Source: an uncultured Candidatus Saccharimonadales bacterium
GTDB lineage: Bacteria > Patescibacteriota > Saccharimonadia > UBA4664
Direction: 5' to 3'
Assembly (NCBI GenBank): GCA_964609585.1
Contig: CAZSRA010000005.1
Span: 2,502 to 66,501, forward strand
Length of the DNA stretch: 64,000 nucleotides
A model generated the notes under the pieces. It saw only the letters and a program-made list of their open reading frames with translations. It did no database searches and had not been told where the DNA came from. This document shows positions 2,594 to 43,947 of this stretch, one piece after another; the stretch's first letter is position 1, and each line of letters starts with the position of its first letter. The position numbers and the translations under genes are program-made.

Positions 2594-5500
2594 ATGGATG
2601 AGCAAGAACCGCACGCTGATAAAGAAGGTGCATTTCATGACTACGCTGCAGACTTCGCTGAAGCTACGAGCGCGGAATTGTCCCAGGATACTAAGACGAG
2701 CTCTTCAGATAGATATAGTCTTTTACCTCCTGAAGTTCGAGCCGCTTACGAAACAGGAGATGCAGATCAGCTAACTAGGGCCATCCAGACGGGTCTTATG
2801 ACCGCCATTAATATTGACAGTGAGACTGGTATTTTTGCGGCCAAGAATAAGGCCTTACTTGAACAACAATTAGTCGCCAGCGGCTTAGTTGCAGAGTTGG
2901 CCGAAGCTTATGCTACTTTAACTGATCCAGGAGTACCCGGCTCGCAACCGGGACGCCGAATACATCAAAGTCAAAGAAGTAGGCGGTTCATCGAATTAGC
3001 TGCAGGGGTACCTTATGACGAGGCTGGTCATCCAAAGGATGGCAAAACTCATGTTCTGGCCACGGATCATAATGATTTACTGGCCACTGATTGGGTTGCA
3101 CTTGCTTCTCTTCAAGAACCCGGCATCGAACAACAGAAATATTTACAGAGGTCTCTTGATGCACTTCGTGTTCGTCGAGCTTCGCGGCCGCAGAATTCCT
3201 ATGGTGTGGAAGAATATGTGGGGATAGCCGAAACGATTACTCCAGGTCTTGTGCCGAATATTCTCACCCTCGCTCGCGAGGCTCGTCAAATAAATGGTTT
3301 TAGTTCAGACCCTTTAGTCGACCAGGCCGATGCCGCAATCCTACAGTTCATACATAATGGACGAGAAGATCTTGCGACAGCGCTTTTAACCCCCTCGGGG
3401 AACGAGCCAGAACGGATCGCTCGCGCGCAGGATACTCTCCAGATGAGCACGGAAGAAAGAGACGCAACCGTACAACGTGCCGTAGCGCTGTATCAGGAAA
3501 AGGTTAAACAGTTTCGTGAAGCTATGACCGATCGCGGAATTCCTGAGGATATATTTGATCTAATAATCGATTCTATTTTATCTCATACAAATGATCCGGA
3601 GACGGCTCTTGAGGTTTCGCCGGATTTCTGGCAAACATTGGATGCCTTGCCTTATGCCGTAGAGGATAGCTTTTACAATACAAAGGGCTCGTTAGGCAGG
3701 GCATCTGAGTGTATTCAAGCCCTCGCGCAAAACGGATTGCTTGCTCAGTCACCTCGGGTTTTACCGGAAATGATGATTTTTGAGGACTCGACTAGCCGAG
3801 AGGCTTATGCAGCTTCGCTTTCTGAAGCCATCAGTGCTGAAGAGTCTGCAGGACGATCCTGGTCCGGTGGCTTTGCAGGTTTTAATGATCCTGCGGCCGC
3901 AAGAGAACTAGCTCTTCGTTTATTTCCACCCGAGGATCTATCCTCAGCCTCCCAAGCAACGATGACGCTTCTCGATGATCATCTCCACAAAGCGTATGGT
4001 CACCTGCCTTATTCCGATGGTCTCGTAGTGCTTAACCCCGAGCATAGCTCTTTTCTTGAGAGGGCAAAGGAGCTGCTCGTTAAGGGTGGACTTAGCGATG
4101 ACGGAGCCCTAGAACATATAGGCAAGCTCGCTATCAACTCTGAAGACGGCCCTGAAAATAGCGCTAAACTCTTGGACGCGCTTTCGATGTTTGAAGGACG
4201 ACAAGACGCAGCTGAAGGTCTTGCTCTTATGCTTGCTGCTAAAAACCCCGCAGAAGCCGCAAAAACGTGGGCCACCTACTCTAGGGAAGTTTCGACTTTA
4301 CCCGAATCTGCGCAAGCCGACCTTAAAAAAGTCTTCAGTGAGAGTCTCGAGCCGATGGAACATGCCCAGGCCTACTTTGGGCTTGTGACTGAGCTAGCAG
4401 CCCATAATGTTGCTCTCGGCCAGGATAATAGCTCAAGCTTCAGAGACCTATTTAAAAATACTCTGAGAGCGCCCGGGGAAAGGCAAAGGCTTATTGAAAA
4501 TTTTGTGGACCGAGATGTTATTTCTCGAGAAACACGCGCACGTTTGTCGCCGTACTTCCATGAGATCGTAGCCGAGGCCAAGGCCAAAACAGATGACGAT
4601 ACAGAGGAGGTAAAGCCCCCAGACCCTAGTACTCCTATCGAAGCTGTCGATCCATTTGAAGCCTACCCGGAAACGAAGGCCATCTTTAGGCGACTTGGCA
4701 TACCGGAACCCGTTGCCAAGGTTATGTACGATACCTGGCGAAGCTACGACAGCCTTGGTAAGGTCGCTCGGGATCAAGAAGACAGAGATTTCAAACCGAA
4801 GAAGCTCAAAGATTTTACTCCCGGTGATATCGAGGCTGTTTTAACCACTCGCATCAATAGAGTGAATCAACAACTTCTCGCAGCAAAAGAATATATTCGC
4901 GCCTATGGAATAGAAGAACTCCTGGAAGTGCACGACACATTTGAGACGGTAAACTTTATCCGCTCTAGACCTGAACGAATGCATGATCAGCTTATGCGCT
5001 GGCAAGATCCTAATGAAATAATAAAGGTTTTATCGGCTTCGGCATACCGGGATCCTAATGGAGCCTTTGATACAGCTGCCAATGATGCCTTTGGGCGGTT
5101 TGGTGAACCTGGTACCTTTTGTTTTGAGGCCAATGGTAAGGTTGGAATTGCTAAAATGGCCGTCAAGGCTGGCAAACGGGAACGAAGCATGGGACGTGAT
5201 CCCGAAATTGATTCACAACTCGAAATTGTCGAGATAAATGCACATGGCTCTCCTTCGACTTTAGCTCTTGGCGTTAAATTTGATACGCATGGCGATCTGC
5301 TGACTCAGGACGGATGGGATGTGGAGGATAATCTTGATCTAGAGGCCTACGCTCAGGCTGCTCAGAATCGAACAAAGGTCAAGGCCTTTGCTAATACTTA
5401 TAAAAAACATCTCGGCAGCGGTTATCGTGTAATCTTAAGCGCCTGCAGCACGGCTGGAGATGTAATCTTGAAAGCTTCAGAACAGGTAGATCCTGGTGAT

Positions 5501-5677
5501 CAGGGGTTAAAGAACATTGCTGAGACGTTGTCTGATGCACATGGTCGTCCGGTTTTTGCTAGTCCTAAAGATATTTACTCATACTCCATCGCCCCAGATG
5601 GAGCCATTGCTTTTGTAACTTCGCGAGATGGCAGAGAGCTAACTCCAGCTCGCATATACGAATCAGAGACGGTTTAA
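2594..5677 (+). CDS. large (1027 aa) hypothetical protein with a C-terminal CHAT/caspase-like protease signature
   Basis: Long uninterrupted ORF with no signal peptide or TM helices and a largely helical N-terminal 800 aa. The last about 200 aa contain EINAHGSP...RVILSACSTAGDV, resembling the His and Cys catalytic dyad of CHAT/caspase-fold peptidases. A GGGAGG RBS-like motif sits about 21 nt upstream, so the start may be slightly off. Confidence 0.6.
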   Translation: MDEQEPHADKEGAFHDYAADFAEATSAELSQDTKTSSSDRYSLLPPEVRAAYETGDADQLTRAIQTGLMTAINIDSETGIFAAKNKALLEQQLVASGLVAELAEAYATLTDPGVPGSQPGRRIHQSQRSRRFIELAAGVPYDEAGHPKDGKTHVLATDHNDLLATDWVALASLQEPGIEQQKYLQRSLDALRVRRASRPQNSYGVEEYVGIAETITPGLVPNILTLAREARQINGFSSDPLVDQADAAILQFIHNGREDLATALLTPSGNEPERIARAQDTLQMSTEERDATVQRAVALYQEKVKQFREAMTDRGIPEDIFDLIIDSILSHTNDPETALEVSPDFWQTLDALPYAVEDSFYNTKGSLGRASECIQALAQNGLLAQSPRVLPEMMIFEDSTSREAYAASLSEAISAEESAGRSWSGGFAGFNDPAAARELALRLFPPEDLSSASQATMTLLDDHLHKAYGHLPYSDGLVVLNPEHSSFLERAKELLVKGGLSDDGALEHIGKLAINSEDGPENSAKLLDALSMFEGRQDAAEGLALMLAAKNPAEAAKTWATYSREVSTLPESAQADLKKVFSESLEPMEHAQAYFGLVTELAAHNVALGQDNSSSFRDLFKNTLRAPGERQRLIENFVDRDVISRETRARLSPYFHEIVAEAKAKTDDDTEEVKPPDPSTPIEAVDPFEAYPETKAIFRRLGIPEPVAKVMYDTWRSYDSLGKVARDQEDRDFKPKKLKDFTPGDIEAVLTTRINRVNQQLLAAKEYIRAYGIEELLEVHDTFETVNFIRSRPERMHDQLMRWQDPNEIIKVLSASAYRDPNGAFDTAANDAFGRFGEPGTFCFEANGKVGIAKMAVKAGKRERSMGRDPEIDSQLEIVEINAHGSPSTLALGVKFDTHGDLLTQDGWDVEDNLDLEAYAQAAQNRTKVKAFANTYKKHLGSGYRVILSACSTAGDVILKASEQVDPGDQGLKNIAETLSDAHGRPVFASPKDIYSYSIAPDGAIAFVTSRDGRELTPARIYESETV

Positions 5678-5831: not shown

Positions 5832-5915
5832 TGGTGCGCGAGAGAGGACTCGAACCTCCACGCCTTGCGGCACTTGCCCCTCAGACAAGCGTGTATACCA
5901 TTTCACCACTCGCGC
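5832..5915 (-). tRNA. tRNA-Leu (anticodon GAG), type II with long variable arm, CCA encoded
   Basis: The reverse complement GCGCGAGTGGTGAAATGGTATACACGCTTGTCTGAGGGGCAAGTGCCGCAAGGCGTGGAGGTTCGAGTCCTCTCTCGCGCACCA folds as a cloverleaf by hand. It has a 7-bp acceptor stem, anticodon stem CTTGT/GCAAG with loop CTGAGGG, a GGAGG-TTCGAGT-CCTCT T-arm and an extra arm. Confidence 0.85.
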
Positions 5916-7968: not shown

Positions 7969-8283
7969 ACCTTTATGATACGGTGGAGCGCGAAAAATTA
8001 CAAAGCGCTTATGGCAAAAAAAAGCGGGTTCTCCGAAATTCCTCGCTGTCGCTTTCACGAAGATTCTGTTCAGCCCCGTTCGATACATTATTTTCAGGCA
8101 TGTGGGCATTGGTGGTATTTCTAAAATTTAAAGCGCTTATGGTAAAATTTTTGATTCTTTTGTCTTAGAAAAATGAATCATTTTTTTATAAATTCATGAT
8201 CGTGTGGTCGGGCAGAAAACAACAAGCTCGATTTCACACGTACCAACCCCTTCTTCTCTTTGATGTGAGGAGGTGTGAAAAGC

Positions 8284-8394
8284 ATGGAGGAGTACGAGAC
8301 GCCCGAAGCGTTCGAGCTCGGCAACCTCCGCGACGAGACCCACGGCAGCAACGGGTTCAACGACGCGGACGACACGCAGTACGACCAGGCGTAG
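8284..8394 (+). CDS. lasso peptide precursor (A peptide), 36 aa; not in the ORF track
   Basis: atggaggagtacgag...caggcgtag encodes MEEYETPEAFELGNLRDETH/GSNGFNDADDTQYDQA. GAGGAGG sits 8 nt upstream. The leader fits YxxPxLxxxGxxxxxTx with Y-17, P-14, G-8 and T-2. The core starts with Gly1 and has Asp7 and Asp9 available for the isopeptide ring. It lies immediately upstream of the C, B1 and B2 genes. Confidence 0.65.
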   Translation: MEEYETPEAFELGNLRDETHGSNGFNDADDTQYDQA

Positions 8395-8493
8395 GCGCCG
8401 GGTCGTACATAAGTTTTGCCCGTAATGGGTGAAGCTGCATGCCGGGGGCGTATATCGTCCCCGGCATGTCCCCATCTTCCTAAGGAGTATTGA

Positions 8494-10314
8494 GTGTTCT
8501 GGATCGCAGGGTACCATTCGTCCGATCATGCTCCCGCCAAGCAGCGACCGCGAGCAGGAGTTCTTCGACTGGGGGCCCGGGACTCCTGGTGGAGCTGTGG
8601 CTATCCCGATAGGTCCATCCGACAGGTACAAAACCAAACCTGTACCATGTTCGTGGTCGGCGACTGCCTCGCAACTGACGAAGAGCTGGAAACTTCACTG
8701 TCCAGCGCCGAAAAAGGCGCCTGGATGAACCTGATGATGTGGCCCGGGAATTACACTGTCGTCGTTTCGAGAGCGAGCAACACGACAATCCTTGGTGACC
8801 TGTCTGGAGTCAACCGGGTATACTATGCTCGTCATCAGGATGGTTGGTGGTGGTCGAACACAGCGAAGCCATTGGCAGCCTTGATTGGTGATGAGGTTGA
8901 CTTGACCTTGCTCGCCCTCGACATCAGCGTCTATGGCATCGACCTGTTCAACGGGAGAGCCCCATTCCGGCGAGTAGCCGCCATCCCTCCAGGGTCGGCG
9001 TTGCAGTTTAAGGATGGTGAGCCCTCCGTAATCCAGTGGTATGAACCAACGTACACGACATCTTTCTCGGCAACGGCGGAGGCTCTTCGAAACGCACTTC
9101 TTGACTCAACCAGGCGAAGAAGCCTCCTGGAAGGAGACGTTATATCCGGTGATTTGTCCGGTGGCTTCGATTCCAGCGGCGTACTAGCGGCGATGAGCCA
9201 AGAAAGATCAACCGTCGGCGTTACTCATGTGCACCCCTTGCTCAGCGATGAGGATGCACGATATGCAAGAAGAGTGGCCGAGGCCTGTAGCATTCGACAG
9301 ATCGTGGCTCAAGGAGATCAGTCTACCTTGCATTATGGTGGGTTGGACGACCCTGCGAGACTGCCCGTGACTGATCTTCCAGCCGCGGATGTCTTTTTGG
9401 CGAACTACAACCGGCAAAAGCTTCAGTTTGCTGCTGAAGCTGGAAGCCGCCACCATCTCACCGGTGCAGGAGGTGACTCCATGCTCGATGCATCCAGCAC
9501 TAGGATCGCGGATCAAATCATGATGGGCGACTGGGCGGGAGCGGTGAGGGCAACTTTCTTTATGGCCCACCGAACCGAATGTCCTCCATGGCGCATTGCT
9601 CGAGCCATGTGGATACTTGCTCATACCTCACATGAGCAGTCGCTCCGAGAGGTAGCTCGGTCCCTACCGGTTGTTCAGCCATACCTGGGCAGACACAAGC
9701 CGTGGGAGCACATAGCTTGGCACCTCCCTTCAACCGGCGCGAACTGGCTTACGGCCAACGCCGCTCAAGAAGTAGCCAAGCTTATGCGTGGACTGCTTAG
9801 AGATATGCCAGGTAGTTGGGCGAAGCGGCCAGGAGAGTTCCATGACTGGACGGGACTTCTTCGGACGGGCATAGAGAGAAAGTCGACGGTGGAACAGGCC
9901 CGCTTGCTCGGCATTACCATACACGACCCTTATCTCGATGCCCAGGTGATCCGGTGCTGCATGGCATTGCCGGGCCATATCCGGACATCGGGTGCTGGCT
10001 TTAAGCCGCTGCTATCTGCAGCGCTACCGAGCGTAATCCCGCCATTCTTGGCCGCGCGAACGACCAAGGGATCCTTCACGAGGATGATGTATGCAGGCAT
10101 CAAGCTGAACGAGCCTTGGCTGCATCAGCTCATCTCATCCTCGACGCTCATAGAGAGTGGGGTGATCAGGAAAACCGCAGCAGAAGAAACACTGAGACGC
10201 GCAGTCCATGGGCTAAATGCTCCTTTCAGAACGTTGCACCAATTCGTAGCAACGGAAATATGGCTGCAAGGCTTGGTGCTAGCAGAAAAAGATTGGTGGG
10301 AGACGAATAGATGA
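8494..10314 (+). CDS. lasso peptide isopeptide-forming cyclase (asparagine synthetase B-like, C protein)
   Basis: Contains the PP-loop ATP-pyrophosphatase motif SGGFDSSGVLAAM and an AsnB-like C-terminal half. The true start is probably the internal Met MFVVGDCLATDE at about nt 8647. The gene abuts the precursor and the B1/B2 genes. Confidence 0.8.
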   Translation: MFWIAGYHSSDHAPAKQRPRAGVLRLGARDSWWSCGYPDRSIRQVQNQTCTMFVVGDCLATDEELETSLSSAEKGAWMNLMMWPGNYTVVVSRASNTTILGDLSGVNRVYYARHQDGWWWSNTAKPLAALIGDEVDLTLLALDISVYGIDLFNGRAPFRRVAAIPPGSALQFKDGEPSVIQWYEPTYTTSFSATAEALRNALLDSTRRRSLLEGDVISGDLSGGFDSSGVLAAMSQERSTVGVTHVHPLLSDEDARYARRVAEACSIRQIVAQGDQSTLHYGGLDDPARLPVTDLPAADVFLANYNRQKLQFAAEAGSRHHLTGAGGDSMLDASSTRIADQIMMGDWAGAVRATFFMAHRTECPPWRIARAMWILAHTSHEQSLREVARSLPVVQPYLGRHKPWEHIAWHLPSTGANWLTANAAQEVAKLMRGLLRDMPGSWAKRPGEFHDWTGLLRTGIERKSTVEQARLLGITIHDPYLDAQVIRCCMALPGHIRTSGAGFKPLLSAALPSVIPPFLAARTTKGSFTRMMYAGIKLNEPWLHQLISSSTLIESGVIRKTAAEETLRRAVHGLNAPFRTLHQFVATEIWLQGLVLAEKDWWETNR

Positions 10315-10616
10315 GATACACGGCATCGAGACATGTACGACAAGTCGAATTCGAAGACGGATCGGTAGTACTGTGGAACCTTGCGGTTCGAAGGGGGAAC
10401 AATACACTGTTGCTGCCTCGAGGGGCGGCGGCCGTCCTCTGGAATTCCCTTAAAGGAGGTGCGTCTGTCGAAGAGGCCATAGAGACTCTTCAGACTCGGT
10501 ACAGTGTCGATAGGAGTCGGCTCGAAACCGATCTTCAACCGATCATCCAAAGTCTGCTAAAAAACAAGATGCTCGTCGATCCCTCACGTGTCCAAAGATG
10601 GTGGAGATTAGCGTGA
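10311..10616 (+). CDS. lasso peptide B1 protein (PqqD-family RiPP recognition element)
   Basis: 101 aa with the PqqD/RRE pattern FEDGSVVLWNLAVRRGNNTLLLPRGAAAVLWNSLKGGASVEEAIETLQTRYSV. Its ATG overlaps the stop of C in an ATGA arrangement, indicating translational coupling. Confidence 0.75.
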   Translation: MRYTASRHVRQVEFEDGSVVLWNLAVRRGNNTLLLPRGAAAVLWNSLKGGASVEEAIETLQTRYSVDRSRLETDLQPIIQSLLKNKMLVDPSRVQRWWRLA

Positions 10617-11032
10617 CTCTGTCCATGATCGAGCGCGACAATAGCTCTGCTGGGCTGTCGCTGCAAACCAAATGCCTGGGGATTATCGGCGCCATAGGGG
10701 CGCTTTTCGTTCTCCTGGCTCCCCTCCCTGTAGTCGAAGCATGGCTGAAGTGGCTTCGCAAGAAGACTAAGCCGGCCAAAGCAACTGAGACCGAAGAGCT
10801 GATCCGGGCAGTTCGGTGGGCGATGCGATTCTATCCCGGTAGGTTCGACTGCCTGCAAGTGCCACTGGGTGCTTGCATGGCCGGAGCACTAAGAGGCCGC
10901 ATGCCTACATGGTGCATCGGCGCTAAACTGAACCCTGTGGTTCAACATGCCTGGGTAGAGGCAGAGGGCCGGCCTGTCGCCGAGCCCGAGGCAGGATCCG
11001 ACTGGCCCTACAAAGCGGCAATCAGGATTTAG
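10598..11032 (+). CDS. lasso peptide B2 protein (transglutaminase-like leader peptidase)
   Basis: Contains RFYPGRFDCLQVPLGACMAG...WCIGAKLNPVVQHAWVEAEGRPV, i.e. the Cys and His (HAWVE) core of the lasso B / Transglut_core3 family. It overlaps the B1 stop; an alternative GTG start at 10613 would give a GTGA overlap. Confidence 0.8.
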   Translation: MVEISVTLSMIERDNSSAGLSLQTKCLGIIGAIGALFVLLAPLPVVEAWLKWLRKKTKPAKATETEELIRAVRWAMRFYPGRFDCLQVPLGACMAGALRGRMPTWCIGAKLNPVVQHAWVEAEGRPVAEPEAGSDWPYKAAIRI

Positions 11033-41218: not shown

Positions 41219-42277
41219 TTAACCCACTGTACCAAAGCCGGAAGCCGCAAGCAAAGTAATGGCAGCGGCGAGGCCCGAAATCTCGATAGCGGCTACGAGG
41301 CGATAGTGGAGGGAACTCCAGCGTCCGAGGCCTTTGCGCCAAACGGTGAAGTGGGTGATGAGGTAAACGATGAAGAGCATGACGAGCAAACCGATGGTGA
41401 TGAGGGTACCGAGGTTCAGCGTACGAATGATGGAGAGTGGCTTGAAGAGGCTGTACTGTTGAGGAGCCGGAGCGCTGGAGATGGTTTGACTGCTTGCCAC
41501 AATGGGCCTAGGCGTGGGGACAGGCGTGGGAGCTACAGTGGCAGTGGGGGCAGGAGTGGCTACGAGAGCTACTGGGGTGGCCGGCACTGGTGCTGGCGTT
41601 GATTTTGGAACGGGTCTGGCGGTGGGGGCCGGAACACTGGCGGCCACGCTGACGCCGGCTTGGGCGCCGTAATGCGCTACCACAAGTGTGGTTTGGCCGC
41701 CTACAAGGGTGCCATTTTCCACCGCAAAGCCAACATCAGTGTAGTGAGGATTGAGAATATTGGCACGATGACCAGGCGAATTCATCCAGCCTTGGACCGT
41801 GCCGGCGGTGGTGTCGAAATCTTTAGCGAGATTTTCACCGGCATAGGTGTAATTGTAACCAGCCTGAGTAAACCAATACCACGGCTGAATGCCGCTGGGC
41901 GAAACGTGAGCCCAATAATTTTCCGCGAACATGTTCCCTGCTTTGAGGGTGGCGCTTTGGTTGAGGCGGGCGTCCATGCGCAGAGGCGAAAGGCCATTGG
42001 CGACGCGTTGTTGATTGGTTTGGTCGAGAAGGTCGGTGGGGGTGATGTCGGAGGCGTAGGCGAGTACATTGCCCTGGGTGAGAGCACGAACGGCGGGTGG
42101 TCGCAGGAGATTGGCGGAAATTTGTACGCCAATGATAAGAAACGCCACGAGCGCGAGGCCATGGAGGCGAATAAGATGAGGGCGGTGGTCGTTGTGTTTG
42201 TGGGGCACAAACCAGTGCTTGAGATGATGACGCAGTGTTTTTGGTTTACGCTTGCCTGGCATGGGGTTATTGTACAT
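41219..42277 (-). CDS. CAP-domain (SCP/PR-1-like) protein with Pro/Thr-rich linker and C-terminal TM anchor
   Basis: CAP-domain signatures ENYWAHVSPSG...GWMNSPGHRANILNPHYTDVGFAV. Confidence 0.7.
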   Translation of the reverse strand: MYNNPMPGKRKPKTLRHHLKHWFVPHKHNDHRPHLIRLHGLALVAFLIIGVQISANLLRPPAVRALTQGNVLAYASDITPTDLLDQTNQQRVANGLSPLRMDARLNQSATLKAGNMFAENYWAHVSPSGIQPWYWFTQAGYNYTYAGENLAKDFDTTAGTVQGWMNSPGHRANILNPHYTDVGFAVENGTLVGGQTTLVVAHYGAQAGVSVAASVPAPTARPVPKSTPAPVPATPVALVATPAPTATVAPTPVPTPRPIVASSQTISSAPAPQQYSLFKPLSIIRTLNLGTLITIGLLVMLFIVYLITHFTVWRKGLGRWSSLHYRLVAAIEISGLAAAITLLAASGFGTVG

Positions 42278-42417: not shown

Positions 42418-43947
42418 TTGTATTTTATTGACGAATTACGTGCTTTACCCTATAGTCCCGGACACGACGTGAACCTCGACAACCTAGGAGCAATCATGGT
42501 TTTTAAGTGCCGACGGCCCGGAGAGATTCTCGGAAATGTTCTCCAGGACGCTCAGGGAAATGTCACCGGCGGGCGTGTGTTCGGGTGGGAAGCAGAACAG
42601 GGTATTTCTTGCCTAGAGATGCTTGACGGCAAGCTCGAAGTGGCCGATAACCACACGATGTGGAGCATGCTCTGCCATGTATACCCCCCAAGCCACCCCT
42701 TCAATCGTTCGGGTAATCGCCACTACATCGATGTGGGGAGCCACCCCGAGCGCTGTACGGCTGAGCACAATACAGTCCGAGGGATCGTTCGCGATTTCTT
42801 CTTCGGCGAGGGCGAGATGGACCGCCGAGCGCGCGCCGCTACGAGATACTTCAAAGAGGCGAAGCAACGCGATGTCTATCTGAAAGTCTGGGGTGGCAAC
42901 ACTACCGGCGGAGAGACATATGCAGGTCATGCCAACTACCAAATCTGGCTGCCGATCGACACAGCCATCTCAGATGATCGCATGAGTATCGAAGACTTCA
43001 TGTATCCGCTGGCGCCCTTCTTGGCAACCTGTTCTATCGTTCTGGGCGCAGGTGACCTGGTATGGGATGGAGACGGACTCCACATGAACGTGTCCGTTCG
43101 AGCGAGCCGCATCTGGGACGCGTTCTCCTGCTCCACCACCCGAAGCCGATCGCTCGTCAATCTGCGCGACGAGCCGCACGCCGGGGATGGTTCGAGCCGC
43201 CTGCATGTCATCAGCTTCGATGCACCCATCCGACCTCGAACCAAGGCTCGGATACACTCCCTGATGGTCGTACTGCTTACTATGCGCGAGCAGGGCAAGC
43301 TCAAGGGCCTCAGACTATCGGGCGAGGAGCTCGTACAGGTGACTCAAACCGTCACCCGCAACCCGGAGTACAAGTTCTCGCTTGAGTGCGGCAATAAAAG
43401 CGCATTTGATATCCAGAGGACCTATGCCCAGGAAGCCCTGGAGTTCGTCACTGGTCGGGTCGGTCTCGAGCAGTTCGCACCCTGGGTCGAGGACTATATG
43501 CGGTGCCTCGATCTGATCGCCGAGCATGGCTACAACGCCGAGGCACTCAGCGACGAGCTGGACTGGGCCCTTACGTGGGAATCGGTCCAGGAGCTGGTGA
43601 GGGCTGGCCACACCAGCAGAACCAAGCTTTTCGGCCGCCAACTAGAGCTACACCTACATACGGGCAGAGACACCCGACGGATGCGAGCGGCGGCGGCCGA
43701 CCCCTGGTTCGAAAGGTTTGGTCTGCACGAGCTACCCGAAATCCTTGAGCCCCCCAGAACTCGCGCTTGGGCGCGTGGGGCAGTCATCGCGGCCGCCCAG
43801 GAACTCCGCCTGGACTTCAACGCGGATTGGGAGATTGTGGTCGTGAATGGGGAGTCCATTCATCTACCAAAACCCGGCAGCCCGAAACTCCCGTTCCAGG
43901 CTCAGAACTTGGTCCGCCAAGCGGGCCTCGAACACTTACTAGTCTGA
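42418..43947 (+). CDS. Pup-ligase/deamidase family (PafA/Dop-like) glutamine-synthetase-fold amidoligase
   Basis: RVFGWEAEQGIS matches (R)IMGIETE(F/Y)G(V/I)S. YIDVGSHPERCTAE matches PafA YLDVGSHPEYATAE. VWGGNTTGGETYAGHANY matches PafA KNNTDGKGASYGCHENY. GC is about 65%. The true start is probably ATG 42496 (MVFKCRR...). Confidence 0.75.
   Translation: MYFIDELRALPYSPGHDVNLDNLGAIMVFKCRRPGEILGNVLQDAQGNVTGGRVFGWEAEQGISCLEMLDGKLEVADNHTMWSMLCHVYPPSHPFNRSGNRHYIDVGSHPERCTAEHNTVRGIVRDFFFGEGEMDRRARAATRYFKEAKQRDVYLKVWGGNTTGGETYAGHANYQIWLPIDTAISDDRMSIEDFMYPLAPFLATCSIVLGAGDLVWDGDGLHMNVSVRASRIWDAFSCSTTRSRSLVNLRDEPHAGDGSSRLHVISFDAPIRPRTKARIHSLMVVLLTMREQGKLKGLRLSGEELVQVTQTVTRNPEYKFSLECGNKSAFDIQRTYAQEALEFVTGRVGLEQFAPWVEDYMRCLDLIAEHGYNAEALSDELDWALTWESVQELVRAGHTSRTKLFGRQLELHLHTGRDTRRMRAAAADPWFERFGLHELPEILEPPRTRAWARGAVIAAAQELRLDFNADWEIVVVNGESIHLPKPGSPKLPFQAQNLVRQAGLEHLLV

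What the first reader, a model, noticed from the sequence alone, without database searches (positions are those of the whole stretch)
2594..5677. 1027-aa orphan protein with a C-terminal CHAT/caspase-like His-Cys dyad, adjacent to tRNA-Leu(GAG)
The C-terminal 200 aa contain ...EINAHGSP... and ...YRVILSACSTAGDV.... This fits the H-G ... (L/V)(L/V)SAC(S/E)(T/S)(A/G) catalytic pattern of CHAT/caspase-fold peptidases. The N-terminal 800 aa are helical with no TM or signal peptide. The gene has lower GC (about 47%) than the surrounding backbone and ends 155 bp from the 3' end of a tRNA-Leu. It could be a large effector or regulatory protease.
Basis: partly seen in the sequence, partly recalled or inferred. 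Interest (0 to 1): 0.6.

Follow-up and report, generated by a model that had tools for sequence, protein, structure and literature searches.

The report
Caspase-like protease in a candidate-phyla bacterium
This 1027-residue protein, probably from a tiny episymbiotic bacterium (Saccharimonadia), ends in a previously unannotated caspase-fold cysteine protease domain that is a distant cousin of a Pseudomonas type VI secretion effector; it is a new family of a known enzyme kind, and its target is unknown.

Summary
The ORF (2594-5677, +, 1027 aa), both motifs and the tRNA-Leu(GAG) 155 bp downstream are real. The protein is not an orphan: an exhaustive HMMER search finds 103 homologous clusters, and the only two with organism labels are Patescibacteria/Saccharimonadales. 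The conserved part is a C-terminal module (residues ~690-1027). His884 and Cys951 are invariant in 64/64 homologues.

AlphaFold models are confident (pLDDT 93). They show a helical subdomain followed by an alpha/beta domain with caspase-type topology, with His after strand 3 and Cys after strand 4. The best Foldseek hits are Tce1 (a P. aeruginosa DUF4347 T6SS effector and putative cysteine protease, E 1.7e-5), SAVED-CHAT, caspases and Craspase. A profile-profile comparison with 12 verified DUF4347 domains gives 91% probability and aligns His with His and Cys with Cys. Shuffled and reversed controls give 2% or less.

No Pfam, NCBIfam, PADLOC or PDB sequence model reaches threshold, including CHAT, Peptidase_C14 and DUF4347. 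It is therefore a new family within the caspase/CHAT/CPD clan, not a member of CHAT or C14.

The gene stands alone among housekeeping genes in seven contexts. Whether it is an effector, and what it cleaves, remains inferred. The N-terminal helical module also occurs fused to other C-termini, which hints at a modular effector.

The parts
2594..5677 (+). Complete gene: 1027-aa cytoplasmic-type (no signal peptide or TM), acidic multidomain protein
2594..3253 (+). Residues 1-220: variable, acidic N-terminal region. It is present in only about half of the full-length homologues and is poorly conserved
   Evidence: occupancy 0.5-0.7, top-residue frequency about 0.23
3266..3943 (+). Residues ~225-450: second conserved module. 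R231, L264, W346, Y405, F430 and A436 are invariant in 18/18, with no conserved His or Cys. The same module occurs in P0101 and P0102, which carry different C-termini
3944..4660 (+). Residues 451-689: weakly conserved linker region, presumed helical (not modelled)
4661..5005 (+). Residues 690-804: family-specific all-helical subdomain packed on the protease domain. W715, F783, Q799 and W803 are invariant
   Evidence: AF2 model me3b1568de08e, pLDDT 93.6, pTM 0.91; conservation
5006..5674 (+). Residues 805-1027: alpha/beta domain with caspase-type (clan CD) topology, distantly related to DUF4347/Tce1
   Evidence: AF2 model mb07b8875085e, pLDDT 92.7; Foldseek PDB; hhalign against DUF4347 91.2%, E 1e-6; controls
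5243..5248 (+). His884-Gly885, proposed general base, directly after strand beta3 (IVEIN-A-H-G)
   Evidence: His is invariant in 64/64; it aligns with the DUF4347 S-H-G histidine, and the bait match to chain 9qpe_G places that DUF4347 His at about Tce1 His186 (PMC13323088)
5441..5446 (+). Ala950-Cys951, proposed nucleophile, directly after strand beta4 (RVILS-A-C)
   Evidence: Cys is invariant in 64/64; it aligns with the DUF4347 Y-G-C cysteine
5832..5915 (-). tRNA-Leu(gag), convergent neighbour 155 bp downstream. This is context only, and no att-like repeat or integrase was found

Best explanation
The gene encodes a stand-alone, multidomain cysteine peptidase of a previously unannotated family. 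The only two labelled members of the family are Patescibacteria/Saccharimonadales. The conserved C-terminal ~340 residues form one unit: a family-specific helical subdomain (690-804) packed on a caspase-hemoglobinase-fold (MEROPS clan CD) domain (805-1027). In that domain His884 (end of strand 3, H-G) and Cys951 (end of strand 4, A-C) form the catalytic dyad, as in caspases, CHAT proteases, the C80 toxin self-cleaving domains and the DUF4347 effector Tce1, which is the nearest detectable relative. The long N-terminal part (a conserved module at 225-450 plus variable regions) most likely positions or regulates the protease, as the helical N-terminal regions do in separase and TPR-CHAT, or acts as a carrier. 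Shown here: the family exists, the dyad is invariant, the fold is as described, the domain is homologous to DUF4347, and the gene has no conserved genomic partner. Inferred: the domain is an active endopeptidase cutting specific protein targets. More speculatively, those targets belong to the bacterial host of an episymbiont, or the domain cuts its own polypeptide.
For: 103 homologous clusters, with the conserved module always C-terminal. His884 and Cys951 are invariant in 64/64, 65/65 and 37/37 sequences at about 30% identity. AF2 models are confident: pLDDT 93.6 with pTM 0.91, and pLDDT 92.7 with pTM 0.89. Their order is b1-a-b2-a-b3-His-a-b4-Cys-a-b5. Foldseek against the PDB with the cropped domain gives 9qpe_G Tce1 (E 1.7e-5, prob 1.0, TM 0.52), 8tl0_C SAVED-CHAT (E 2.5e-3, prob 1.0), caspase-9, -11, -4 and -2, and Craspase 7xsq/8d9f. 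With the longer model, caspases and Craspase are already the highest-probability hits. hhalign of the family against 12 Pfam-verified DUF4347 domains gives 91.2% probability and E 1e-6, pairing H with H and C with C. Reversed and shuffled controls give 2.1% or less. Sub-threshold PF14252 hits occur in 9/65 members, and the one examined in detail spans both motifs. Tce1 (PA0256) is a DUF4347 protein described as a putative cysteine protease, with His186/Cys240 superposing on the TcdB CPD dyad (PMC8262886, PMC13323088). Ser952 is not conserved (50/64), whereas Cys951 is. For the taxon: HSX00506.1 is labelled [Patescibacteria group bacterium] and HSW98556.1 [Candidatus Saccharimonadales bacterium], and the window's UvrB is 71-73% identical to that of the 774-kb contig carrying P0015.
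Confidence: 0.7

Rival explanations
1. Self-processing module. Like the C80 cysteine protease domains of MARTX and TcdA/TcdB toxins, the C-terminal domain cuts its own polypeptide after a trigger and releases the N-terminal region, which would be the actual functional cargo.
For: The closest structural relative, Tce1, was itself matched by its authors to the TcdB CPD (PMC13323088). The protease is the conserved C-terminal constant part, while N-terminal regions vary in length and sequence. There is a cluster of conserved basic residues near the domain (R862, R864, R868, K/R937-938, H939), as would suit a small anionic activator (inference).
Against: TcdB itself is only a weak Foldseek hit (8qeo_A, E 0.21, prob 0.16). 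No cleavage site or activator site was identified. The 225-450 module has no recognisable enzymatic signature. Bacterial hosts lack InsP6 (own knowledge).
Confidence: 0.15
2. A Cys-His enzyme on the caspase scaffold that is not a hydrolytic protease, for example a transpeptidase/transamidase (as GPI8 or legumain-type ligases in clan CD) or another acyl-transfer enzyme.
For: Clan CD includes transamidases (established knowledge). Only the dyad and the fold are established here. Additional invariant polar residues (D820, N822, E845, N974) have no assigned role.
Against: The great majority of characterised clan-CD enzymes, and all the top structural matches, are endopeptidases.
Confidence: 0.08
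3. Component of an anti-phage defence or abortive-infection system, like SAVED-CHAT or Craspase, activated by a signal from partner genes.
For: SAVED-CHAT and Craspase are among the best structural hits. In one context (L025/L026) the divergent neighbour is an OLD/AriA-like ATPase.
Against: There is no PADLOC hit for the target or three homologues. There is no sensor domain (SAVED, TPR-gRAMP partner) and no conserved neighbour across seven contexts, which are housekeeping genes.
Confidence: 0.04
4. An alpha/beta-hydrolase-like esterase using Ser952 in A-C-S-T-A-G as a GxSxG-type nucleophile, with the H-G as an oxyanion-hole motif; or a catalytically dead scaffold.
For: The local sequence xACSTAG superficially resembles a nucleophile elbow, and strand-H-G resembles the lipase oxyanion motif (sequence).
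Against: Ser952 is replaced by E, L, N, K or H in 14/64 homologues, while Cys951 is invariant. High-probability fold hits are clan CD, and the one lipase-like hit has prob 0.20. Invariance of His and Cys at 30% identity argues against a dead scaffold.
Confidence: 0.03

Closest known systems
Tce1 (PA0256) of Pseudomonas aeruginosa / Pfam DUF4347 (PF14252); structure 9QPE chain G
   Same: Best structural match (Foldseek E 1.7e-5, prob 1.0, TM 0.52 normalised to the target). Profile-profile homology at 91% aligns the strand-H-G-x-P-x-x-L-x-L-G and strand-x-C motifs and the following VxAS strand. The proposed His-Cys dyad is in the same order, with the protease domain at the C-terminus behind an N-terminal extension (PMC13323088).
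   Different: Below the Pfam threshold: the best member scores 19.2 bits against a cutoff of 24.6, and the query itself has no hit. Only strands 3-5 align. Tce1 is a 310-aa cargo loaded into Hcp3 rings of a T6SS, whereas this protein has 1027 aa, carries an extra conserved helical subdomain (690-804) and a 690-aa N-terminal region, and has no Hcp/VgrG or other secretion genes nearby. Classical DUF4347 domains sit at the N-terminus of giant adhesin-like proteins.
CHAT proteases (PF12770): SAVED-CHAT (8TL0), Csx29/TPR-CHAT of Craspase (7XSQ, 8D9F)
   Same: Caspase-like fold with His after strand 3 and Cys after strand 4. The LSAC-type motif resembles CHAT (sequence). Structural hits have prob 0.90-1.0. 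The architectural logic is a helical N-terminal region followed by a C-terminal protease, as in TPR-CHAT and separase (established knowledge).
   Different: No PF12770 hit for the query, and none among the families most often matched by the 65 members. No PDB sequence hit. No sensor domain or CRISPR/CBASS partners. Not in PADLOC.
Caspases/metacaspases (MEROPS C14)
   Same: Same fold class and same order of catalytic residues. Weak but consistent structural matches to caspase-9, -11, -4, -2 and -7.
   Different: No Peptidase_C14 HMM hit. The QACxG pentapeptide is absent (position 949 is variable, G955 in only 39/64). There is a C-terminal beta-meander instead of the caspase a5-b6/p10 arrangement. 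TM is only 0.3-0.48.
C80 self-cleaving cysteine protease domains (MARTX RtxA, TcdA/TcdB CPD, OspB)
   Different: The direct match is weak (8qeo_A, E 0.21, prob 0.16). No InsP6 site or self-cleavage site was identified. The organismal setting differs.

Membership tests
MEROPS clan CD (caspase-hemoglobinase fold cysteine peptidases) | His then Cys in sequence, each directly after a hydrophobic beta-strand, typically H-G ... A-C (Chen et al. 1998 signature; own knowledge) | tested here: met
   IVEINA-H884-G and RVILSA-C951 follow strands E74-78 and E141-145 of model mb07b8875085e. His and Cys are 64/64. Position 950 is A/S/G in 64/64.
MEROPS clan CD (caspase-hemoglobinase fold cysteine peptidases) | Alpha/beta/alpha sandwich with caspase strand order; structural similarity to solved members | tested here: met
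MEROPS clan CD (caspase-hemoglobinase fold cysteine peptidases) | Catalytic geometry (His and Cys side chains adjacent) and peptidase activity | not testable with these tools
Pfam CHAT (PF12770) | Match to the family HMM at or above the gathering score | tested here: not met
   No PF12770 hit for the query at E<=10. It is not among the 25 most frequently matched of the 52 families reported for the 65 members at E<=1; the remaining 27 families, each matched by at most one member, were not listed.
Pfam CHAT (PF12770) | Structural similarity to solved CHAT domains | tested here: met
   8tl0_C E 2.5e-3, prob 1.0, rmsd 5.4; 7xsq_B E 1.2e-2, prob 0.96; 8d9f_A prob 0.90.
Peptidase_C14 (caspases, metacaspases) | Match to the family HMM; QACxG-type active-site pentapeptide | tested here: not met
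   No C14 hit. The sequence is LSACST. Position 949 is variable (Q17, K11, H6 and others) and G955 is present in only 39/64.
Pfam DUF4347 (PF14252) / Tce1-like | Match to PF14252 at or above the gathering score (24.6 bits) | tested here: not met
   The query has no hit. 9/65 members match at E<=1, with the best E 3.2e-4. The best cropped member scores 19.2 bits, E 1.1e-3, over residues 70-164 and profile positions 44-127.
Pfam DUF4347 (PF14252) / Tce1-like | Profile-profile homology with the catalytic His and Cys in register | tested here: met
   hhalign of A2 against A3 (12/12 verified DUF4347): 91.2%, E 1e-6, 85 columns, H with H and C with C. Reversed and shuffled controls give 2.1% or less.
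Pfam DUF4347 (PF14252) / Tce1-like | Association with Hcp/T6SS (Tce1), or an N-terminal position in giant repeat adhesins (classical DUF4347) | tested here: not met
   The domain is C-terminal. No Hcp, VgrG or adhesin repeats appear in the protein or among called neighbours in seven contexts.
Peptidase C80 (CPD of MARTX/TcdA/TcdB) | Structural match to the CPD; InsP6-dependent self-cleavage | tested here: inconclusive
   There is only a weak TcdB hit (8qeo_A, E 0.21, prob 0.16). The link is indirect, through Tce1 (PMC13323088). Activation and cleavage cannot be tested here.
Alpha/beta hydrolases (GxSxG nucleophile elbow) | Invariant Ser nucleophile in sm-x-S-x-sm; alpha/beta-hydrolase fold | tested here: not met
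   Ser952 is present in only 50/64. The high-probability fold hits are not alpha/beta hydrolases.
Known anti-phage defence systems (PADLOC-DB) | Match to a defence-system protein model; conserved partner genes | tested here: not met
   No PADLOC hit for the target, P0015 or P0003. P0005 has only marginal Cas11e noise. No conserved neighbours.

The most novel reading that the evidence does not exclude
The family is a lineage-specific set of modular effectors of episymbiotic Patescibacteria. A conserved helical carrier module (residues ~225-450) is combined with interchangeable C-terminal enzymatic domains. The clan-CD protease is the commonest of these, while P0101 and P0102 carry other, unknown domains. 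The proteins diverge much faster than housekeeping genes (about 35% against 71% identity between two related genomes), sometimes sit next to tRNA genes with foreign base composition, and are delivered into, or act on, the bacterial host cell to cleave specific host proteins.
Probability: 0.15. Interest if true: 0.7.

Novelty: new variant of a known kind. Interest (0 to 1): 0.45.

Why it matters
Patescibacteria (the candidate phyla radiation) make up a large share of bacterial diversity and live attached to other microbes, yet almost nothing is known about the proteins they use on their hosts. Most of their large proteins have no annotation. This finding places one such family of about 100 sequence clusters, with no Pfam or NCBIfam model, in a defined enzyme class. 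It provides a concrete catalytic dyad that can be mutated, a confident structural model, and a link to the recently described T6SS effector Tce1/DUF4347, whose own activity is still unproven. It also extends the reach of DUF4347-type domains from giant adhesins and a Pseudomonas T6SS cargo to a different phylum and a different architecture. If the protease acts on host proteins, it would be an entry point to the molecular basis of the epibiotic lifestyle. If not, it is still a new branch of the caspase-fold clan that deserves a family model in the databases.

Tried and rejected
1. Direct family assignment by HMM. Pfam, NCBIfam and PDB sequence searches with the protein, the C-terminal 277 aa, a family consensus and two family profiles all gave nothing above threshold. 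The profile from A1 was swamped by helical low-complexity matches to designed helical proteins, so I cropped to the alpha/beta domain.

2. The word-indexed homologue search found only 1-2 relatives in three tries. The family appeared only in the exhaustive HMMER search.

3. GTDB genome scans. The full protein gave no relative. A degenerate DNA pattern for the motif FGIx[NH]FxR-x5-LxxQxxxW gave 3 hits, all chance by tblastn.

5. The genomic-island idea for the tRNA neighbour. There is no att-like repeat of the tRNA end and no integrase, and low GC is seen in only 2 of 7 copies. I rejected it as an established feature and kept it as a weak lead.

6. Defence-system idea: no PADLOC hit.

7. Serine-hydrolase reading of ACSTAG: rejected because Ser952 is not conserved.

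8. A direct phmmer search from a family member to the Tce1 chain gave no hit. I retrieved genuine DUF4347 domains from plasmids with a from-memory bait and verified them by Pfam.

9. Exact look-ups of window housekeeping proteins failed because my minus-strand references kept the stop codon and dropped the start codon. This is harmless for the domain scans.

10. Promoter and terminator consensus scans were uninformative.

11. Literature searches for the SRA run and for Saccharibacteria protease effectors found nothing specific.
Full report
OBSERVATION. The window contains an ATG-initiated ORF at 2594-5677 on the + strand encoding 1027 residues. The same product was called independently on a Logan contig. 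EINAHGSP (His884, codon 5243-5245) and YRVILSACSTAGDV (Cys951, codon 5444-5446) are present. ARAGORN and Rfam both find tRNA-Leu(gag) at 5832-5915 on the minus strand, 155 bp from the stop codon. Gene GC is 48.5% and GC3 is 40.7%. The window as a whole is 56% GC, and its UvrA/B/C, malic-enzyme and FAD-oxidase genes have GC3 of 58-71%. There is no hydrophobic segment compatible with a signal peptide or TM helix, and the protein is acidic.

NOT AN ORPHAN. The word-indexed search saw a single 26%-identical homologue. The exhaustive HMMER search of 1.84 billion cluster representatives found 103 clusters at E<=1e-3, 39 of them at E<=1e-30. In all of these the matching region is the C-terminal ~320-340 residues of the protein. 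About 18 clusters also share residues ~225-690. None has a precomputed Pfam domain or an informative name.

CONSERVATION OF THE PROPOSED DYAD. His884 and Cys951 are invariant in a 64-sequence alignment of the C-terminal module, in the 65-sequence alignment A1, and in the 37-sequence alignment A2 of the cropped alpha/beta domain. In A2 mean column identity is 30% and only five columns are invariant: P870, H884, G941, C951 and N974. Further invariant or nearly invariant positions are W715, F783, Q799 and W803 in the helical subdomain, and D820, N822, F844, E845, G860, R864, R868, N934 and Y936. Ser952, the alternative nucleophile in 'ACSTAG', is present in only 50/64.

SEQUENCE-LEVEL FAMILY TESTS. 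Pfam-A, NCBIfam and the PDB sequence library give no significant hit to the full protein, its C-terminal 277 residues, a family consensus, or family profiles. In particular, no PF12770 (CHAT) or Peptidase_C14 match appears for the query, and neither family is among those most often matched by the 65 members. The only recurring weak signal is PF14252 (DUF4347), seen in 9 of 65 members with a best E of 3.2e-4. In the one cropped member examined in detail, the hit scores 19.2 bits against a cutoff of 24.6 and spans residues 70-164, which includes both the H-G and the x-C motifs.

LINK TO DUF4347/Tce1. The depositors name PDB chain 9qpe_G 'DUF4347 domain-containing protein'. PA0256 (Tce1) was reported to contain DUF4347 (PMC8262886). 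It was later described as a putative cysteine protease cargo of Hcp3, with His186/Cys240 superposing on the dyad of the TcdB cysteine protease domain. Mutational support exists only for the paralogous Tce2 C115S (PMC13323088). To test homology at residue level I retrieved genuine DUF4347 domains from annotated plasmids, using a from-memory bait (loci L013-L024). I aligned 12 of them (A3) and confirmed that all 12 pass PF14252, with a best E of 1.5e-56. hhalign of the family profile A2 against A3 gives 91.2% probability and E 1e-6 over 85 columns. It aligns IVEINAHGSPSTLALG with VHLVSHGSPGCLYLG, RVILSACST with LLLYGCNV, and PVFAS with IRAS. Reversed and column-shuffled versions of A3 give at most 2.1% probability and scores of 20 or less, against 46.4 for the real comparison. 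The family is therefore a distant homologue of DUF4347 with the catalytic residues in register. It is below Pfam's membership threshold, and only strands 3-5 are alignable.

REST OF THE PROTEIN. Among 18 long homologues, residues 1-200 are poorly conserved and often absent. Residues ~225-450 form a second conserved module: R231, L264, W346, Y405, F430 and A436 are invariant, with no conserved His or Cys. Residues 450-690 are weakly conserved. Two long proteins, P0101 (1255 aa) and P0102 (1351 aa), share only this middle module: 31% identity over 168 residues, pairwise E 4e-13, and library E about 3e-5. They lack the protease module. Their C-termini have no Pfam, PADLOC or PDB relatives.

GENOMIC AND TAXONOMIC CONTEXT. 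Around the gene lie Tag glycosylase, a MarR regulator, a small membrane protein, an FAD-linked oxidase and a lasso-peptide cluster. Further away are UvrA, UvrB, UvrC, glycolytic and pentose-phosphate genes, and a distant PafA-like gene. The window holds no paralogue. In six other contexts (L003/L004, L005, L009-L011, L012, L025/L026, L027/L028) the homologue is a stand-alone gene among unrelated housekeeping genes, with no recurring neighbour, secretion apparatus or immunity-like gene. Only two family members carry an organism label: HSX00506.1 [Patescibacteria group bacterium] and HSW98556.1 [Candidatus Saccharimonadales bacterium]. The latter shares a 90% cluster with P0015, which lies on a 774-kb contig. 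That contig's UvrB is 71-73% identical to the window's UvrB, and its malic enzyme is 66% identical. By contrast the family proteins of the two genomes share only about 35% identity in the C-terminal module and about 26% N-terminally. I therefore infer that the window is a Saccharimonadia chromosome and that the family evolves much faster than housekeeping genes, although orthology of the two copies is not established. Neither the query's own peptide patterns nor a motif pattern that matches about half the family found any member among 185,579 GTDB species representatives, so the family appears uncommon there.

tRNA AND BASE COMPOSITION. There is no direct repeat of the tRNA end and no integrase near the gene. 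A tRNA lies within about 600 bp of the family gene in 3 of 7 contexts. A rough binomial gives P of about 0.008 under an assumed 45 tRNAs per 0.9 Mb. The low-GC signature is confined to the window copy and L003, while five other copies match their background. Recent horizontal acquisition of this particular copy is plausible but not shown.

MECHANISM AND CONFIDENCE. The best-supported reading (confidence 0.7) is a clan-CD cysteine endopeptidase with His884 as general base and Cys951 as nucleophile. It carries an obligatory helical subdomain and sits at the end of a long helical N-terminal region that regulates it or targets it. The fold, the dyad and the homology are shown. Catalytic activity, substrates, any self-cleavage, and any role toward a host bacterium are inferred. 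The rivals are a self-processing CPD-like module (0.15), a non-hydrolytic Cys-His enzyme (0.08), a defence-system component (0.04), and a serine hydrolase or dead scaffold (0.03).

NOVELTY. The enzyme kind is known. The family is unannotated, falls below every curated model, has its own architecture, and has so far been labelled only in Patescibacteria. I rate it a new variant of a known kind, with moderate interest (0.45). The most novel reading not excluded is a modular, fast-evolving effector system of episymbiotic bacteria with interchangeable C-terminal domains (probability about 0.15).

Noticed in passing
window 8275-11032 (+): Lasso-peptide-type gene cluster. The candidate 39-aa precursor at 8275-8394 is MKSMEEYETPEAFELGNLRDETH|GSNGFNDADDTQYDQA (Thr at -2, Gly1, Asp7/Asp9). 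It is followed by an Asn-synthase-like cyclase (8494-10314), a PqqD-like B1 (10311-10616) and a transglutaminase-like B2 protease (10598-11032). A RiPP cluster in a probable Saccharimonadia genome could be unusual.
   Followed up: partly
window 3266-3943 (residues ~225-450 of the target); proteins P0101, P0102: The conserved middle module of the target also occurs in two 1255- and 1351-aa proteins that lack the protease module and end in different, completely unannotated C-terminal regions. This suggests a carrier module with interchangeable C-terminal domains.
   Followed up: partly
window 5832-5915; L009 12937-13013; L012 6688-6926: A tRNA gene lies within about 600 bp of the family gene in 3 of 7 genomic contexts, with a different tRNA each time (rough P about 0.008). 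No att repeat or integrase was found in the window.
   Followed up: partly
window 2594-5677 compared with L003, L005, L009, L012, L025, L027: The low GC/GC3 of the gene (48.5%/40.7% against 56% background) is shared only by the L003 copy. Five other family members match their genomic background, so the anomaly belongs to this copy and not to the family.
   Followed up: yes
L025 7955-9778 (-) and L026 67-1890 (-): In one related genome the divergently transcribed neighbour of the family member is an OLD/AriA-like AAA_15 ATPase, a defence-type protein. This is not seen in any other context.
   Followed up: partly
window 42418-43947 (+): A PafA/Dop-like (Pup ligase family) ORF scores far below the NCBIfam cutoffs (164 bits against 551), so it is a distant homologue of the pupylation enzymes in a probable Patescibacteria genome.
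   Followed up: no
window 41219-42277 (-) and L025 2887-3945: A 352-aa CAP-domain (cysteine-rich secretory protein family) protein is present both in the window and near the family member in the related 774-kb contig, at 45% identity.
   Followed up: no
whole family (method note): The word-indexed homologue search returned 1-2 relatives in three attempts, while the exhaustive HMMER search returned 103 clusters. For helical, compositionally biased proteins the word index badly under-reports families, so 'orphan' calls based on it are unsafe.
   Followed up: yes
window 5270-5332 and 5456-5512 (residues 893-913 and 955-973): The window protein carries two loop insertions: one after the His strand, shared with only a few homologues, and one after the Cys that is absent from most homologues. 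The second has lower pLDDT (63-78). Their significance is unknown, but the loop after the catalytic Cys is where caspases are processed.
   Followed up: no
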